Below, piece by piece: positions 1 through 3,967 of a stretch of DNA of 64,000 nt. Where the stretch lies: positions 18,326 through 82,325 of the IMG/VR virus record IMGVR_UViG_3300032225_002310. One strand, 5' to 3'. Numbering within the stretch: the first letter of the stretch is position 1; every line of letters starts with the position of its first letter. The notes beneath the pieces are model-generated. The model was not told where the DNA came from and did not search any database. It saw only the letters and a list, made by a program, of their open reading frames with translations. The translations under genes and the position numbers were made by a program. The DNA is from a virus. Taxonomy: Duplodnaviria; Caudoviricetes.

Positions 1-199
1 TTGTTACTAAAGGGCAACAAAATGGGAAAGCTGCAACTTTACCATCCTCATCCAAAATTAAACATCCATCTTCTGTTACTGGAGATCTTAATCCGCATGC
101 ACAACCTTTTAAATCGTCATCATTTCCAGCACTTATTTCATTAAGAATACTTTTAATGTAATCTGGATAATTATTTGGTTCTGTTATAGCGCATGGCAT
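1..199 (-). CDS. Cys-rich hypothetical protein, runs off the window edge; paralog of 635..1378; absent from the ORF track
   Basis: My translation from ATG at 199: MPCAITEPNNYPDYIKSILNEISAGNDDDLKGCACGLRSPVTEDGCLILDEDGKVAAFPFCCPLVT..., open to base 1. Shares NYPDY.K.IL.EI..GND..L..CAC.L.S with 635..1378. GTGTAAT lies 8 nt upstream. Confidence 0.8.
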   Translation of the reverse strand, partial: MPCAITEPNNYPDYIKSILNEISAGNDDDLKGCACGLRSPVTEDGCLILDEDGKVAAFPFCCPLVT

Positions 200-207
200 A
201 CAATACT

Positions 208-214
208 ATTACAC
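208..214 (-). promoter_or_regulatory. GTGTAAW motif (putative late promoter)
   Basis: GTGTAAT, 8 nt before ATG 199. Confidence 0.65.
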
Positions 215-256
215 CTATATACTTGTATTTTAATACGATATCCTATATTTATAACT

Positions 257-560
257 TTTCTTTGATATCCAAAAGGGCTTTACCTCCAGATTATATATCT
301 GAAGTTATGTATTATCAATCCAACTTTTCTTTTGACTCCAAATTTCACCACGATCTCAGTGATGAACGGGCCATCGCACTTATGGATCAGAGGTAGCTTC
401 GATCACTACATTCTGCGATGCCTGTAGCTACATTTCCTTATTTAGCCATAATATGTACAAATTAAGGTTTTAATAGTTGTCAGCCCTTATGACATTGCTA
501 TCTCAGGGATTGATAATTGATTTTTTGACATCAACAAACTGCTCTAATTGGGAACTATGT
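257..560 (-). ncRNA. Unclassified structured ncRNA candidate (~280-300 nt, pseudoknotted)
   Basis: Long-range helices 534-527/269-262 and 517-507/321-311 (11 bp perfect); crossing helix 488-482/279-273; hairpins 502-491 (GCAA loop), 467-436, 420-372, 366-344, 304-284. Four G-U pairs are legal only on the - strand. Own sigma70 promoter; no credible ORF. Confidence 0.72.
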
Positions 561-566
561 ACTTAT

Positions 567-595
567 ATACTATTTTAATTTTAAACTTTTGTCAA
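567..595 (-). promoter_or_regulatory. sigma70-type promoter driving the ncRNA candidate
   Basis: TTGACA (595-590) N17 TAGTAT (572-567). Confidence 0.7.
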
Positions 596-634
596 ATAGT
601 TTTTTTAATTTAAGGAGATAGATTTAAAATTTAT

Positions 635-1378
635 CTACCAAGGTATAAGATTTGTTGCATTAATACTTGTATATCCAATACTACCAGGCGGTGCAACAAC
701 TGATGTTCGAAAATAATAATCATTTACTGGTATATAATTTTCATTACCATAATAATAAAGAAATTGGTAAAGAATTGGCCCAGGTTCACCACATTCAGGA
801 TCTACATAAGTATCCATAAAGAAATAGTAATGAAAGTTAAACTCTGGAACTTGTTGTTGAAATGTATGCCACTGGTCTTGTACTGGTCCATCGCAATCGG
901 ATAAATATCCATGATTAACAGTGCCACCAAAAAGAAAAAACATATCACAGACTTGATTTTTTCTACTTTCGTTATATTTCTTTACTTTCATAATTTCAGA
1001 AAAACCACTAGATTCAACAGAAGGGCCTTCATCTGTACATGTTGCGCTTGGTGGGTAACCATTACCTATTATATTTAAATCAAAACTTTTATATTTATAT
1101 TGTAGCTCCATTATTCTTTGAGGATCTATAGCTCGCAACTCGGTAGTTCCTCCCTGGCTTATTATATAATTATTTAATGTTGTATAAGTAGTATTATCTT
1201 CTCCATTAACTGAAGATATGCAAATAGGTAAAAGATATGGTTTACTATTTACATCGATATAAGATTTTAAAGAACATGCACAAGATTGTAAATTGGTGTC
1301 ATTTCCAATATTTATTTCTTTTAGAATAGTTTTAAGATAATCTGGGTAATTATCACTTGATTTTAAACCGCATGCCAT
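635..1378 (-). CDS. Cys-rich hypothetical protein
   Basis: 247-aa ORF; N-terminus homologous to ORF <1..199; GTGTAAT 7 nt upstream. Confidence 0.8.
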   Translation of the reverse strand: MACGLKSSDNYPDYLKTILKEINIGNDTNLQSCACSLKSYIDVNSKPYLLPICISSVNGEDNTTYTTLNNYIISQGGTTELRAIDPQRIMELQYKYKSFDLNIIGNGYPPSATCTDEGPSVESSGFSEIMKVKKYNESRKNQVCDMFFLFGGTVNHGYLSDCDGPVQDQWHTFQQQVPEFNFHYYFFMDTYVDPECGEPGPILYQFLYYYGNENYIPVNDYYFRTSVVAPPGSIGYTSINATNLIPW

Positions 1379-1400: not shown

Positions 1401-1429
1401 TTGACATTAATACTTTATAAGCTTATAAT
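1401..1429 (+). promoter_or_regulatory. Perfect-consensus sigma70 promoter for tmRNA
   Basis: TTGACA (1401-1406) N17 TATAAT (1424-1429). Confidence 0.85.
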
Positions 1430-1436
1430 GTGTAAA
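1430..1436 (+). promoter_or_regulatory. GTGTAAW motif upstream of tmRNA
   Basis: GTGTAAA abutting the sigma70 -10, 21 nt before the tmRNA 5' end. Confidence 0.5.
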
Positions 1437-1457
1437 GTTAGTTAGTTCTTTAACATT

Positions 1458-1845
1458 GGGCGCGTACTGGTTTCGATTTTAGAGATCGGAATTAAAATGC
1501 AAGTGGAGGTTGAATCGAGGACTCCTTAAAAAGTTTCACTTATATTAACTGCCAAAACAGCAAAATATAAAGGTCACATTTCTGCAAGAGCTTCTCTTGT
1601 TGAATTGACCGCTTCTGTAGCTTAAGTTCTACAGCGTGACTACCTTGACACATCTATTGGATAGTTGCGTAATTAGATGTCTTATTATTAATAGTTTTTT
1701 TATTCTGTTAATATTAAGTATTAAAAATAAACTCGCTTAGTATGTTTGTTGTTTATCTATACAAAGCTAAAAATAAAAACAACTAAACTTGTAGTATTTT
1801 AATTTAGATTTTTAAAAGACGTATGTTCAACTCATACCGCGTCCA
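1458..1845 (+). ncRNA. ssrA: tmRNA (transfer-messenger RNA)
   Basis: 5' GGGCGCGTACTGGTTTCGA. Acceptor stem GGGCGCG/CGCGTCC with G3-U70 and discriminator A. T-arm GTATG-TTCAACT-CATAC. H2 pairings (AATTAAAAT/ATTTTAATT, GCAAGT/ACTTGT). TAACT before resume codon GCC; stop codon in the loop of hairpin CTGTAG..CTACAG. Confidence 0.95.
1551..1625 (+). other. tmRNA tag reading frame AKTAKYKGHISARASLVELTASVA*
   Basis: 24 codons from resume codon GCC at 1551 to TAA at 1623-1625. Confidence 0.85.
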
Positions 1846-1915
1846 AGTCCAAAACGATTCCATCGAGCTCCAATTTATATTAGAGAAGATCTTATTGCTA
1901 AGATATAATATTTAA

Positions 1916-2491
1916 ATGGCAATATCTAAAATACAATTAAAATGTCTTTATTGCGGAAATATATTTAATAAATTAAAATCAGAATATAATAGAAGAATTA
2001 ATAAAGGTAAAACTAAATTTTATTGTAGTTATCAATGTGTTGGTAAAGCTGATGTTGAAAAGAATCCAGATAAATTTAAAAAGTTTAGAGAAGCTAACGC
2101 TATTAGAATAAAAAAATATTGTGGATGTAGGCTAGACCAATACAGTCCATTTAAATATCATGCAAATAAAGCAAGATCACGAAGTAAACAAAAAGGATAC
2201 ATAACAGATTTAACCACAGAATATTTAAAAGAAATTTGGGATAAGCAAAATGGAATCTGTCCATATACAAATTTGAAAATGGAAATCGGCAGAACAAGCG
2301 CAGATGAAGATATTAAAAAAACTCCAATAAAAGCAAGCCTTGATAGAATTGATCCAAATATAGGGTATGTGCAAGGTAATGTTGAATTTGTGTGTTATTG
2401 TGTTAATGTCATGAAGAATGATTTTACTAAACATCAGATGGTAGATTTTATAAATGAAATTAAAAAGAATAATTTGCAGCAAAATGTGTAA
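1916..2491 (+). CDS. HNH/His-Me finger (putative homing) endonuclease with N-terminal Zn-binding motifs
   Basis: CLYC...YCSYQC N-terminus; CPYT...ASLDRIDPNIGYVQGNVEFVCYCVNVMKN C-terminus. Confidence 0.8.
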   Translation: MAISKIQLKCLYCGNIFNKLKSEYNRRINKGKTKFYCSYQCVGKADVEKNPDKFKKFREANAIRIKKYCGCRLDQYSPFKYHANKARSRSKQKGYITDLTTEYLKEIWDKQNGICPYTNLKMEIGRTSADEDIKKTPIKASLDRIDPNIGYVQGNVEFVCYCVNVMKNDFTKHQMVDFINEIKKNNLQQNV

Positions 2492-2500: not shown

Positions 2501-3967
2501 ATGGGACAACCACTAACAGATGATTTTTTATTTATAGATCTTGGAGATCCTCAGTGGCAACCGTATGATTTTAATGGAAGTTATAGTATAGATGGTGCGT
2601 GTGATGATGAAGATTTATGGCTTTATAATAACAACTGGGAATCATCATTAAATTTACCAATAGCAAAAAGTTATGATACCAATCCATCGCAAGGAGAAAC
2701 TTTAACAGCTAAAGTTACTGTTAATGATAATTTAATAATGAAATTAATTGGAGATGGAATGAGAATTACAGAGTATAATGTCGATCAAAGAGATATATTT
2801 AATAAAGATGGAAAACTTAGAGAAATAGTAAATGCATTAAATGCAAAATTTCAACAAGCATTTGGTGATAAAATTGAAACACATTTTGCAGAAGATATAG
2901 CTACTAATATGTTATTAGAACTAAAAAGAATTAGAGCTAAGTATAAATCAGGAACAGATTCAGTATTCAGTAAAGCTGCAAAAATTGCTATGTTAAAAAG
3001 CAGAGATCCAACATCAAATTATGATGATATTTTTAAGCTTAGAACTTTTTGCAAAGAAGCAACTCTAGCGCTTTTAGGATTAGATCATGCAAATGGATTT
3101 TTTGATTATAATTTTGGCGCATCACTTCTATTTAGTCCATATAAAGTTATAACAACAAAATCTGGAAAGAACAGAATAAAAGGTAAAGCGAAATATCGCT
3201 ATGGAAAAGATGGAGATAGAGAAATTTGTTCAAGATGTATTATTATATATAAAAGTGGATCAGAAAGACAAGCTAATGAAAATTTTTCTTTTGGTTTTAG
3301 AGCAGACGACACTTTCAGTGATAGCAAGTTTATAGAAGATGCTGTTGAAGCAAAGTTTAGAACTTTTAGTGCAGATCCAGCTAATTTTGAAACCACAATG
3401 AAAAATTGGTTAACTCAAGCAGCTGCAAGGGTAGGCGGATGGAAATCACCCATAGTAAAATTTGATGGGAATGGTATCGCTGTTAGAGCTAAAATTGGTT
3501 CTCCAAAAAAAGATGATCCTCAAAAAGCAGGAGTATTTAATGTTGCTTTTGCTTTTAATTTTGGAGAAGATAATGGATCTTTATGGATAGGAAATATGGC
3601 TCTTACATTTGTATTAAATGTAGATAATTATCTTTCAGAAGTTGGCAGAATTCAACAAATGAGAGCTAGATATAAAGAAGCAGTAGAAAATTATCAACGA
3701 AAACTTAAACAACTAGCCAAAGAGCTTGCTGATCAATATAAAAGAGATAATCCCGATGTAAATAAAACACAGCTTAATTTATTAACAGAATATGAACGAG
3801 GCGAAACAAATTATGCAAATAGAGATCAAAATGCACAAAACGGACTCTTAGATAAAGGTAATATTTTTGATAATCTAAATACTCCAGTTCCACCAGGAAC
3901 TGGAGGAACAACAAATCAAGGCACCAATTGTTATGAAAATACAACTTCAGACGCATTGCTTTTTTAA
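2501..3967 (+). CDS. Hypothetical protein heading the glycosylation operon
   Basis: 488-aa ORF, no recognised motif; C-terminal coiled-coil-like segment. Confidence 0.8.
   Translation: MGQPLTDDFLFIDLGDPQWQPYDFNGSYSIDGACDDEDLWLYNNNWESSLNLPIAKSYDTNPSQGETLTAKVTVNDNLIMKLIGDGMRITEYNVDQRDIFNKDGKLREIVNALNAKFQQAFGDKIETHFAEDIATNMLLELKRIRAKYKSGTDSVFSKAAKIAMLKSRDPTSNYDDIFKLRTFCKEATLALLGLDHANGFFDYNFGASLLFSPYKVITTKSGKNRIKGKAKYRYGKDGDREICSRCIIIYKSGSERQANENFSFGFRADDTFSDSKFIEDAVEAKFRTFSADPANFETTMKNWLTQAAARVGGWKSPIVKFDGNGIAVRAKIGSPKKDDPQKAGVFNVAFAFNFGEDNGSLWIGNMALTFVLNVDNYLSEVGRIQQMRARYKEAVENYQRKLKQLAKELADQYKRDNPDVNKTQLNLLTEYERGETNYANRDQNAQNGLLDKGNIFDNLNTPVPPGTGGTTNQGTNCYENTTSDALLF

What the first reader, a model, noticed from the sequence alone, without database searches (positions are those of the whole stretch)
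257..595. Unannotated ~300-nt structured RNA with RNase P-like topology but no RNase P signature
Seen: on the - strand a sigma70 promoter (TTGACA-N17-TAGTAT) fires into an ORF-free stretch. It folds as closing helix UUGAUGUC/GAUAUCAA (534-527/269-262), an 11-bp helix (517-507/321-311), a GCAA-capped hairpin (502-491), a crossing helix AAGGGCU/AGCCCUU (488-482/279-273), an internal domain of three hairpins (467-436, 420-372, 366-344) and a hairpin (304-284) between the two 3' strands. Four G-U pairs work only on this strand, and CUGAGAU (T-loop-like) occurs twice. Established: this strand order matches P1-P2-P3-P4-[domain]-P2-P19-P4-P1 of RNase P RNA. However, GAGGAAAGUC, the bulged U of P4 and ACAGAA..GGCUUA are absent. 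Inference: a new phage ncRNA class or a very diverged RNase P-like RNA, about 0.9 kb from a tmRNA that needs 5' processing and CCA addition.
Basis: partly seen in the sequence, partly recalled or inferred. Interest (0 to 1): 0.87.

Follow-up and report, generated by a model that had tools for sequence, protein, structure and literature searches.

The report
New double-knotted RNA gene of lake phages
The gene-free stretch is a real, separately transcribed gene for a roughly 310-base, tightly folded non-coding RNA that belongs to no catalogued RNA family; it is not an RNase P, and its best clue to function is a pair of exposed sequence tracts that always change together.

Summary
Confirmed: window 560-252 (minus strand) encodes a structured non-coding RNA of about 310 nt with its own conserved sigma70-type promoter (595-567). 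No Rfam family matches it, even at E<=10.

I found it in more than 100 uncultured phage contigs, giving 69 distinct versions in five lineages. The fold has ten nested helices and two pseudoknots. On a model-fitted alignment, 44 of 65 pairs show compensatory changes. The main knot (488-482 with 279-273) occurs in six sequence versions, and every one is fully complementary.

Three points fail:
- The "GCAA hairpin" is wrong.
- The closing helix is not conserved.
- The "T-loop" CUGAGAU is not conserved.

The RNase P reading is not supported. The RNA usually sits back-to-back with the phage tmRNA gene, but not always. The gene downstream of it varies, so it is not a leader.

The most informative feature is two near-identical 17-nt tracts (339-323 and 270-254) that lie outside all supported helices. 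They exist in three states, and both tracts always carry the same state. I infer a two-site docking platform for one unknown partner.

Function is unknown. This scan has already found the same RNA family on other genomes.

The parts
590..595 (-). -35 box TTGACA of the RNA's own promoter
   Evidence: Consensus scan. Invariant in 59 close relatives and in all diverged lineages.
567..572 (-). -10 box TAGTAT (TAnnAT in relatives), 17-nt spacer
   Evidence: The spacer sequence varies while the hexamers stay. The invariant block ACAUAG starts at 560, 7 nt after the -10 box.
252..560 (-). The non-coding RNA, about 310 nt. The 5' end is predicted from the promoter. The 3' end is placed where conservation stops; it has not been mapped.
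   Evidence: An island of 90-95% identity between variable genes. Model R1 matches 251-561 at 318 bits. No Rfam hit.
541..555 (-). H1 hairpin, 555-552 with 544-541, loop CCAAUUA
   Evidence: All 4 pairs show compensatory changes; 99.5% of cells paired.
516..535 (-). H2 hairpin, 535-530 with 521-516.
   Evidence: G-C to A-U change in 4 sequences. Different but complementary arms in L311 and in the L302 group.
507..517 (-). H3, 5' arm of the long-range helix that encloses the central domain
   Evidence: Pairs with 321-311. Six of 7 core pairs show compensatory changes. The helix is 12-14 bp with other sequences in the L302 and L288 groups.
311..321 (-). H3, 3' arm
472..502 (-). H4 two-part hairpin: 502-498 with 476-472, and 494-491 with 481-478. 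Its loop carries the 5' arm of knot 1.
Evidence: U494-A478 changes to C-G in 21 of 59 sequences. Further compensatory changes.
482..488 (-). Pseudoknot 1, 5' arm AAGGGCU (loop of H4)
   Evidence: Six versions (AAGGGCU, GAGGGCU, GAAGGCU, AUAGGCU, GAAGACU, CGGAGCU), each fully complementary to its own 3' arm in all 55 distinct rows.
273..279 (-). Pseudoknot 1, 3' arm AGCCCUU, preceded by GAGG(U/G)AA
   Evidence: Five of 7 pairs show compensatory changes.
436..467 (-). H5 hairpin, 467-463 with 440-436
   Evidence: The closing pair has C-G, U-A and A-U types. Four of 5 pairs are compensatory across lineages.
426..431 (-). Pseudoknot 2, 5' arm GUAGCU
   Evidence: Pairs with the H8 loop. A-U to G-C and C-G to G-C changes occur in the diverged lineages; 97.9% of cells paired.
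393..398 (-). Pseudoknot 2, 3' arm AGCUAC (loop of H8)
373..419 (-). H7 (419-414 with 378-373) enclosing H8 (404-400 with 389-385)
   Evidence: H7 is 100% paired, with 3 compensatory pairs. H8 has 4 of 5 compensatory pairs. RNAalifold predicts both independently of my model.
344..366 (-). H9 hairpin, 366-359 with 351-344, loop UGAGAUC in this phage
   Evidence: Six pairs are compensatory. The loop is not conserved.
323..339 (-). Twin tract T1, GGAGUCAAAAGAAAAGU, between H9 and the 3' arm of H3
   Evidence: Invariant apart from one C/U position in 67 sequences. It changes in step with T2 in three states.
284..304 (-). H10 hairpin, 304-297 with 291-284
   Evidence: Six of 8 pairs are compensatory.
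254..270 (-). Twin tract T2, GGAUAUCAAAGAAAAGU, the 3' tail after knot 1. Conservation ends right after it.
1458..1846 (+). Context: phage tmRNA gene, transcribed divergently. Its promoter TTGACA-17-TATAAT is at 1401-1429.
   Evidence: Rfam RF00023, 104.6 bits. ARAGORN. Promoter. In most relatives it begins about 260 nt from the RNA's promoter.

Best explanation
Window 560-252 (minus strand) is a stand-alone gene for a trans-acting, compactly folded non-coding RNA of a family not in Rfam.

Host RNA polymerase would transcribe it from its own sigma70-type promoter. In most relatives that promoter lies back-to-back with the promoter of the phage tmRNA.

The RNA folds into ten helices locked by two pseudoknots. 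This scaffold holds out two near-identical tracts that lie outside all supported helices: T1 at 339-323 and T2 at 270-254.

Inferred mechanism: the tracts are the working parts. They act as two docking sites for the same partner, either a dimeric or repeated RNA-binding protein or two copies of a complementary RNA. The RNA would then be a bivalent decoy or scaffold during infection.

Shown: the gene, the promoter motif, the fold, the independence from neighbouring genes, and the linked evolution of the tracts.
Inferred: transcription itself, both ends of the RNA, action in trans, and the binding role.

My odds: real structured ncRNA gene 0.95; two-site docking mechanism about 0.35. The confidence given for this field is for the whole statement, mechanism included.
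For: - Conservation: an island of 90-95% identity, while the flanking genes come and go.
- Promoter: hexamers fixed, spacer free.
- Not known: no Rfam match at E<=10.
- Fold in 59 close relatives: 99.3% of cells paired, against 29-48% when the partners are slid; 19 pairs with double changes, against 6 or fewer.
- Fold in 55 sequences from five lineages: 44 of 65 pairs have compensatory changes.
- Knot 1: six versions, all complementary.
- Strand: G-U pairs fit the minus strand only.
- Not a leader: the downstream gene differs, or lies on the opposite strand.
- Tracts: 58 sequences carry C in both, 9 carry U in both (two separate clades), and none is mixed.
- Tracts in the L304/L325 lineage: both carry the same four substitutions, AAAGAAAAGU to AUUGGGAAGU, and T1 keeps its one extra base.
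- The tract motif occurs nowhere else in the 82-kb record.
Against: - No transcript data.
- No canonical terminator.
- The single-sequence folding energy is ordinary (z = -1.45).
- No partner was found.
- The heads of the tracts can be drawn into weak helices: 372-367 with 340-334, and 534-527 with 269-262. Neither covaries, so the tracts may not be fully single-stranded.
- The linked change of the tracts rests on three evolutionary events. Sequence exchange between the two copies could also produce it.
- The alignment behind one search was fitted to the model's structure, which favours that structure.
Confidence: 0.4

Rival explanations
1. It is a minimised or rearranged RNase P-like ribozyme, or another RNA that docks tRNA-like domains, and it matures the phage tmRNA and tRNAs.
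For: - It is usually divergent from the tmRNA, about 260 nt away. The tmRNA lacks an encoded CCA. Relatives carry tRNAs nearby.
- The strand order of H3 and knot 1 equals that of P2/P4.
- The junction before the 3' arm of knot 1 reads GAGG(U/G)AAAG(C/U)C. From my memory, this resembles the conserved GAGGAAAGUCC of RNase P.
Against: - No RNase P hit, even at E<=10.
- The motif lies on the 3' arm of the knot, not the 5' arm, and has no bulged U.
- The proposed P1 is not conserved and the proposed P3 is wrong.
- CUGAGAU is not conserved.
- The RNA is 6-16 kb from the tmRNA in three lineages.
- The L304 tmRNA is a close match to the window's, yet its copy of this RNA is strongly diverged.
Confidence: 0.04
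2. It is a cis-acting leader, such as a riboswitch or antiterminator, that controls the genes downstream. Ancestrally these would be the ribonucleotide reductase operon nrdAB.
For: - In L295, L311, L304 and L197 the RNA ends 97-140 nt upstream of nrdA on the same strand.
- No strong terminator follows it.
- In the window, nrdA lies about 10 kb further down the same strand.
Against: - In most loci the next same-strand gene is something else, or there is none within 2.5 kb.
- In L288 and L316 the nrd block faces the RNA.
- The RNA stays 90-95% identical whatever follows it.
- No known riboswitch model matches.
Confidence: 0.1
3. It is an RNA-only assembly like ROOL, GOLLD, OLE or raiA. Copies would associate into a dimer or larger particle, and the twin tracts or the palindromic GAUAUC in T2 would make the contacts between molecules.
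For: - The genomic setting matches that described for ROOL and GOLLD: phages, near tRNA-type genes, function unknown (PMC12286853, PMC5737381).
- It has an ornate pseudoknotted fold.
- T2 contains the self-complementary GAUAUC, which becomes GAUAUU (still self-pairing through G-U) in the U/U state.
Against: - It is half the size of ROOL or smaller.
- GAUAUC is absent from T2 of L304.
- A 6-nt palindrome is expected by chance fairly often.
- No data bear on oligomers.
Confidence: 0.1
4. It acts together with the phage tmRNA in ribosome rescue or on the ribosome. For example, the purine-rich tracts and the GGAG heads could bind ribosomal protein S1, the 30S subunit, SmpB or Hfq.
For: - Bidirectional promoter region shared with the tmRNA in most relatives.
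- Both RNAs are absent from one 121-kb relative that is 80% complete.
- The tracts read as three A-R-N triplets preceded by GGA(G). From my memory, this matches the Hfq distal-face and S1 preferences.
- GOLLD was reported to pull down ribosomes (PMC12286853).
Against: - The linkage is broken in three lineages.
- The tracts of L304 are no longer A-rich, yet its tmRNA is a close match to the window's.
- There is no significant complementarity to the tmRNA.
- Few genes of this phage use a Shine-Dalgarno sequence.
Confidence: 0.12
5. It is not an RNA at all. It would be a DNA-level element (origin, packaging or recombination site), or a decayed copy of the neighbouring paralogous genes.
For: - It lies at a hotspot of gene insertion and inversion.
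- It lies between two paralogous genes.
Against: - The compensatory changes pass through G-U intermediates that work on one strand only.
- It has its own promoter.
- The pseudoknot arms covary over 200 nt.
- Frames are not preserved.
- No second copy of the stretch occurs anywhere in the 82-kb record, only the locus itself.
Confidence: 0.02

Closest known systems
ROOL (RF03087) and GOLLD (RF01998) RNAs
   Same: They are large, pseudoknotted, non-coding RNAs of phages and prophages. They often lie next to tRNA-type genes, and their function is unknown (PMC12286853, PMC5737381). Here the neighbour is a tmRNA, and in relatives also tRNA-Asn, Ser and Thr.
   Different: No sequence or structure match. 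This RNA is about 310 nt, against about 580 and more than 800. It carries twin co-evolving tracts that I do not know to have been described for those RNAs. Whether it forms oligomers is unknown.
Bacterial RNase P RNA (RF00010, RF00011)
   Same: The two long-range helices have the same interleaved strand order as P2 and P4. There is an A-rich junction with a GAGG..AAAG motif before one arm of the knot. It sits next to a tRNA-like gene that needs 5' processing.
   Different: No model hit. The motif is on the opposite arm. The 5' arm of the knot is a hairpin loop. There is no conserved P1, no ACAGAA..GGCUUA and no conserved T-loops.
Phage T4 species 1 and species 2 stable RNAs (rnaC, rnaD)
   Same: They are small stable RNAs of unknown function encoded in a phage's tRNA gene region.
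   Different: Not compared here, because no sequences were to hand. The T4 RNAs are shorter and are co-transcribed with tRNAs, whereas this RNA has its own promoter.
Multi-site protein-sponge RNAs such as CsrB/RsmZ
   Same: They are structured RNAs that display repeated short motifs containing GGA to bind several copies of one protein. This is an analogy for how the RNA might work, not a claim of membership.
   Different: Here there are only two repeats, each 17 nt long and not in hairpin loops. No Rfam match. Binding was not tested.

Membership tests
RNase P RNA | Match to an Rfam RNase P covariance model | tested here: not met
   cmscan of 1-1500 on both strands at E<=10 lists no RNase P family. 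At gathering score only the tmRNA is found.
RNase P RNA | Conserved GAGGAAAGUCC on the 5' strand of P4 with a bulged U, and ACAGAA..GGCUUA on the 3' strand (feature recalled from memory) | tested here: not met
   The only similar motif, GAGG(U/G)AAAG(C/U)C, lies on the 3' arm of knot 1, and every base of the arm is paired. No ACAGAA..GGCUUA is present (sequence).
RNase P RNA | Conserved terminal helix P1 joining the 5' and 3' ends | tested here: not met
   534-527/269-262 shows no compensatory change and has two breaks. It is absent in the L295 group, where the best run is 4, below the controls. It competes with the covarying H2.
RNase P RNA | Cleaves pre-tRNA or pre-tmRNA 5' leaders | not testable with these tools
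   Needs an in-vitro assay.
T-loop motif (tRNA-elbow docking) | The loop motif is conserved across the family | tested here: not met
   The H9 loop UGAGAUC becomes GAAA, GCAA or AAGAAACG. The first CUGAGAU becomes CUGCGAU, GAGAGAU or UACGUGG.
ROOL / GOLLD | Match to RF03087 or RF01998 | tested here: not met
ROOL / GOLLD | Phage-borne and close to tRNA-type genes | tested here: met
   Divergent from the tmRNA in most loci. tRNAs lie nearby in relatives. The context is described in PMC12286853.
ROOL / GOLLD | Assembles into a homo-oligomeric particle | not testable with these tools
   Needs biophysics or cryo-EM.
Riboswitch or other cis-regulatory leader | Constant position upstream of one gene family, with an expression platform | tested here: not met
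   The downstream gene varies or is convergent. nrdA follows in only four of the loci examined. No terminator-like site. No riboswitch model matches.
tRNA / tmRNA-like RNA | Detected by ARAGORN or by Rfam clan CL00001 | tested here: not met
   ARAGORN and Rfam find only the tmRNA at 1458-1846.
Protein-coding gene or pseudogene | An open frame kept among relatives | tested here: not met
   No minus-strand ORF of 30 aa or more. Indels of 1 and 2 nt among relatives. The substitution pattern is that of base pairs.

The most novel reading that the evidence does not exclude
The two tracts are guide-like or decoy sequences that recognise a nucleic-acid or protein partner which itself differs between phage lineages. 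The RNA would then be a programmable two-site adaptor whose specificity is rewritten by changing both tracts together. As a second, less likely option, it is a strand-swapped miniature relative of the RNase P catalytic core.
Probability: 0.12. Interest if true: 0.9.

Novelty: categorically new. Interest (0 to 1): 0.7.

Why it matters
Large, intricately folded bacterial and phage RNAs are rare, and they have repeatedly turned out to carry unusual biochemistry.

This one is abundant in lake viromes, with more than 100 contigs. It is more conserved than the protein genes around it. Its fold is defined by many compensatory changes, including two pseudoknots.

It also offers a built-in experimental handle that most orphan RNAs lack: two exposed tracts that evolution rewrites in step. 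That makes the search for its partner directly testable by pull-down, mutation and tract swapping.

The work also removes a tempting but wrong reading, a phage-encoded RNase P.

Tried and rejected
1. Rfam at gathering score and at E<=10: nothing but the tmRNA.
2. INPHARED phages by blastn and megablast: no cultured relative.
3. Relatives of the neighbouring 247-aa protein: none found.
5. Supplementary files of the IMG/VR structured-RNA survey (PMC10690425), to see whether the RNA was already listed: not held. That survey's motifs are 29-151 nt long.
6. Pairing with the phage tmRNA: no better than with shuffled sequence (167 of 200 shuffles as good).
7. A partner for the tracts inside the phage:
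   - The complement of the motif occurs only at the gene itself.
   - A 21-pair match of T1 at window 3280-3301 lies in a gene that relatives lack, so I treat it as chance.
   - A tract-like run upstream of nrdA is lysine-rich coding sequence.
8. Closing helix 534-527/269-262: not conserved.
9. Outer extension of H9 (372-367/340-334) against an extension of H7 (422-421/370-369): both use invariant bases and cannot be told apart.
10. It stays unresolved.
11. Host identity: the three MAG contigs that carry the RNA come from three unrelated phyla, so they say nothing about the host.
A 336-column model worked.

Full report
**What is there.**
The window belongs to an 82-kb fragment of an uncultured phage, estimated 54% complete. 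The phage is AT-rich and carries tail genes, DnaB, a DNA polymerase III alpha subunit and many glycosyltransferases.

Between two paralogous genes lies a 435-nt gap with no minus-strand ORF of 30 aa or more. G+C rises to 41-46% at 300-450, against 20-26% beside it. The gap contains the promoter-like site TTGACA-N17-TAGTAT at 595-567 on the minus strand.

Rfam finds only the tmRNA at 1458-1846 on the plus strand. A permissive scan of 1-1500 at E<=10 finds nothing relevant and no RNase P model. ARAGORN agrees. The folding energy of the single sequence is unremarkable (z = -1.45), so the case has to rest on comparison with relatives.

**Relatives.**
No cultured phage matches. Short exact patterns from the element, and a neighbouring glycosyltransferase used as an anchor, brought in many IMG/VR and metagenome contigs.

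In these contigs, window 228-612 is an island of 90-95% identity. The genes on either side are only 70-89% identical, or are replaced outright. The -35 and -10 hexamers are invariant while the spacer varies. The invariant block ACAUAG begins at 560, seven bases after the -10 box.

A scan with a tmRNA pattern brought in more distant versions:
- the L295, L311 and L324 group;
- the L302, L316, L288, L289 and L305 group.

A covariance model then found a far more distant pair, L304 and L325, at 65-68 bits. In all there are 69 distinct sequences in five lineages.

**The fold.**

| Element | 5' arm | 3' arm |
|---|---|---|
| H1 | 555-552 | 544-541 |
| H2 | 535-530 | 521-516 |
| H3 | 515-507 | 321-313 |
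| H4 (outer part) | 502-498 | 476-472 |
| H4 (inner part) | 494-491 | 481-478 |
| H5 | 467-463 | 440-436 |
| H7 | 419-414 | 378-373 |
| H8 | 404-400 | 389-385 |
| H9 | 366-359 | 351-344 |
| H10 | 304-297 | 291-284 |
| Knot 1 | 488-482 (loop of H4) | 279-273 |
| Knot 2 | 431-426 | 398-393 (loop of H8) |

Support for this model:
- On 59 close relatives, 99.3% of cells are standard pairs, against 29-48% when the partners are slid. Nineteen pairs change on both sides, against 6 or fewer in the slid controls.
- RNAalifold, run on 13 diverse sequences without my model, recovers H1, part of H3, H4, H7 and H8 with compensatory changes.
- On 55 sequences from all five lineages aligned to the model, 44 of 65 pairs have compensatory changes and 95.6% of cells pair, against 31-45% when slid. 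This alignment is fitted to the structure, which flatters it.
- For knot 1, I took the 5' arm from the alignment and the 3' arm by the anchor G(G/U)AA. Six versions occur, and all 55 rows are complementary at all seven positions.
- Knot 2 changes from GUAGCU/AGCUAC to GUGGCU/AGCCAC.
- Several pairs are G-U in most sequences (G502-U472, G400-U389, U302-G286, U554-G542). On the plus strand these would be A-C mismatches, so the RNA strand is the minus strand.

- Right: the promoter, the 11-bp helix, the crossing helix, the three internal hairpins and the 304-284 hairpin.
- Wrong: the GCAA-capped hairpin. GAUAG pairs with CUAUU and UGUC with GACA (U-A to C-G in 21 of 59 sequences).
- Not supported: the closing helix 534-527/269-262. 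It shows only one-sided changes plus two breaks. It overlaps H2, which covaries. It has no counterpart in the L295 group.
- Not conserved: CUGAGAU. The H9 loop is GAAA or GCAA in the L302 and L288 groups, AAGAAACG in L295, and a short GAAA hairpin in L304.

**Genomic setting.**
In most loci with enough flanking sequence, the tmRNA gene lies on the other strand about 260 nt from the RNA's promoter. The distance is 72 nt in three loci, and larger where genes have been inserted; in this window it is 861 nt.

The link is not obligatory:
- In L295 and L311 the two genes are about 6-10 kb apart. In the 121-kb record of L310/L324 they are about 16 kb apart, and two tRNAs take the divergent position.
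- In L304 they are about 6.5 kb apart.
- One 121-kb relative that is 80% complete has neither RNA.

The gene downstream of the RNA differs from locus to locus, or is on the opposite strand. The RNA is therefore not the leader of a particular gene. It does lie 97-140 nt upstream of nrdA in four loci, which may be the ancestral arrangement.

**The twin tracts.**
Two 17-nt stretches lie outside the supported helices:
- T1, GGAGUCAAAAGAAAAGU, at 339-323;
- T2, GGAUAUCAAAGAAAAGU, at 270-254.

They are the most conserved parts of the RNA. The one variable base is C in both tracts (58 sequences) or U in both (9 sequences, in two separate clades). It is never mixed.

In L304 and L325 the tracts read AGACUCGAUUGGGAAGU and GAGAACUCAUUGGGAAGU. 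Both carry the same four substitutions, and T1 keeps its one extra base. The L304 tmRNA is a close match to the window's along its whole length, so the tracts did not change to follow the tmRNA.

No segment inside the RNA covaries with the tracts. The motif and its complement occur nowhere else in the 82-kb record. A long match at window 3280-3301 lies in a gene that relatives lack.

**Interpretation.**
What is shown is a conserved, promoter-equipped, double-pseudoknotted RNA gene of a family absent from Rfam. I could not find it in the literature searched.

The simplest reading of two exposed, identical, co-evolving tracts on a rigid scaffold is a two-site docking platform for one partner. 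The partner could be a protein dimer or two copies of an RNA. I hold this at about 0.35.

Rivals:
- a role with the tmRNA or the ribosome (0.12);
- an RNA-only assembly like ROOL or GOLLD (0.10; context from PMC12286853 and PMC5737381);
- a cis-acting leader, ancestrally of nrdAB (0.10);
- an RNase P-like ribozyme (0.04);
- a DNA-level element (0.02).

The junction GAGG(U/G)AAAG(C/U)C before the 3' arm of knot 1 resembles the conserved RNase P motif as I remember it. It sits on the opposite arm, and no RNase P model matches, so I treat it as a curiosity.

**Earlier notes of this scan.**
The same RNA family has been found before on other genomes and described as a new knotted RNA of lake phages with twin tracts. 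I had reached the fold and the repeat before reading those notes, and I tested their claims here.

- the six-version table for knot 1;
- the distant L304/L325 lineage, with its rewritten twin tracts;
- the loss of tmRNA linkage in three lineages;
- the recurrent position upstream of nrdA.

**Limits.**
No expression data could be obtained, so transcription, both ends of the RNA and any function are inferences. The host is unknown.

Noticed in passing
window 635-1378 (-) and window -617..199 (-) = L001:684-1500: Two tandem paralogous genes flank the RNA. They share the N-terminus M[AP]C..NYPDY[IL]K.IL.EI..GND..L..CAC. Neither has a Pfam or PHROG match. Members of the family come and go among related phages like cassettes.
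   Followed up: partly
window 1401-1846 (+): Phage tmRNA with a perfect TTGACA-17-TATAAT promoter. Its tag is AKTAKYKGHISARASLVELTASVA, and no CCA is encoded. The tag is strongly conserved in the relatives examined.
   Followed up: partly
window 1916-2491 (+): An HNH/endonuclease VII-like gene lies directly after the tmRNA (PHROG 3322, E = 4.6e-25). It may be a homing endonuclease at a rearrangement hotspot.
   Followed up: no
L295:1252-3996, L311:913-3655, L304:9647-12296; window about -12108..-9847: In several lineages the RNA gene sits 97-140 nt upstream of the ribonucleotide reductase gene nrdA on the same strand. In this phage about 10 kb of variable genes lie between them. In L288 and L316 the nrd block is inverted.
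   Followed up: partly
whole record, 10-17 nt upstream of at least 9 start codons (for example window 199 and 1378, minus strand): A recurrent GTGTAAT-like motif precedes many genes. Only 9 of 73 genes have a GGAG Shine-Dalgarno sequence. The motif could be a phage promoter or a translation signal.
   Followed up: no
L283, L284, L285: Contigs that carry this RNA are filed in metagenome-assembled genomes of Cloacimonadota, Bacteroidales and Deltaproteobacteria. They are most likely phage contigs placed in the wrong bins.
   Followed up: no
L310:5748-5910; L297, L307, L309: Some relatives carry tRNA-Asn(GTT), tRNA-Ser(ACT) and tRNA-Thr(TGT) near the tmRNA. In L310 the tRNA pair takes the divergent position that the RNA gene usually holds.
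   Followed up: no
window 3280-3301 (+): There are 21 consecutive pairs (6 of them G-U) between tract T1 and the mRNA of gene 2501-3967. Relatives lack this gene, so the match is probably chance.
   Followed up: yes
window 291-273 (-): The junction of H10 and knot 1 reads GGAGGUAAAGCCC here and GAGGGAAAGUC in the L302 group. This is close to the conserved GAGGAAAGUCC of RNase P as I recall it, but it lies on the 3' arm of the knot.
   Followed up: partly
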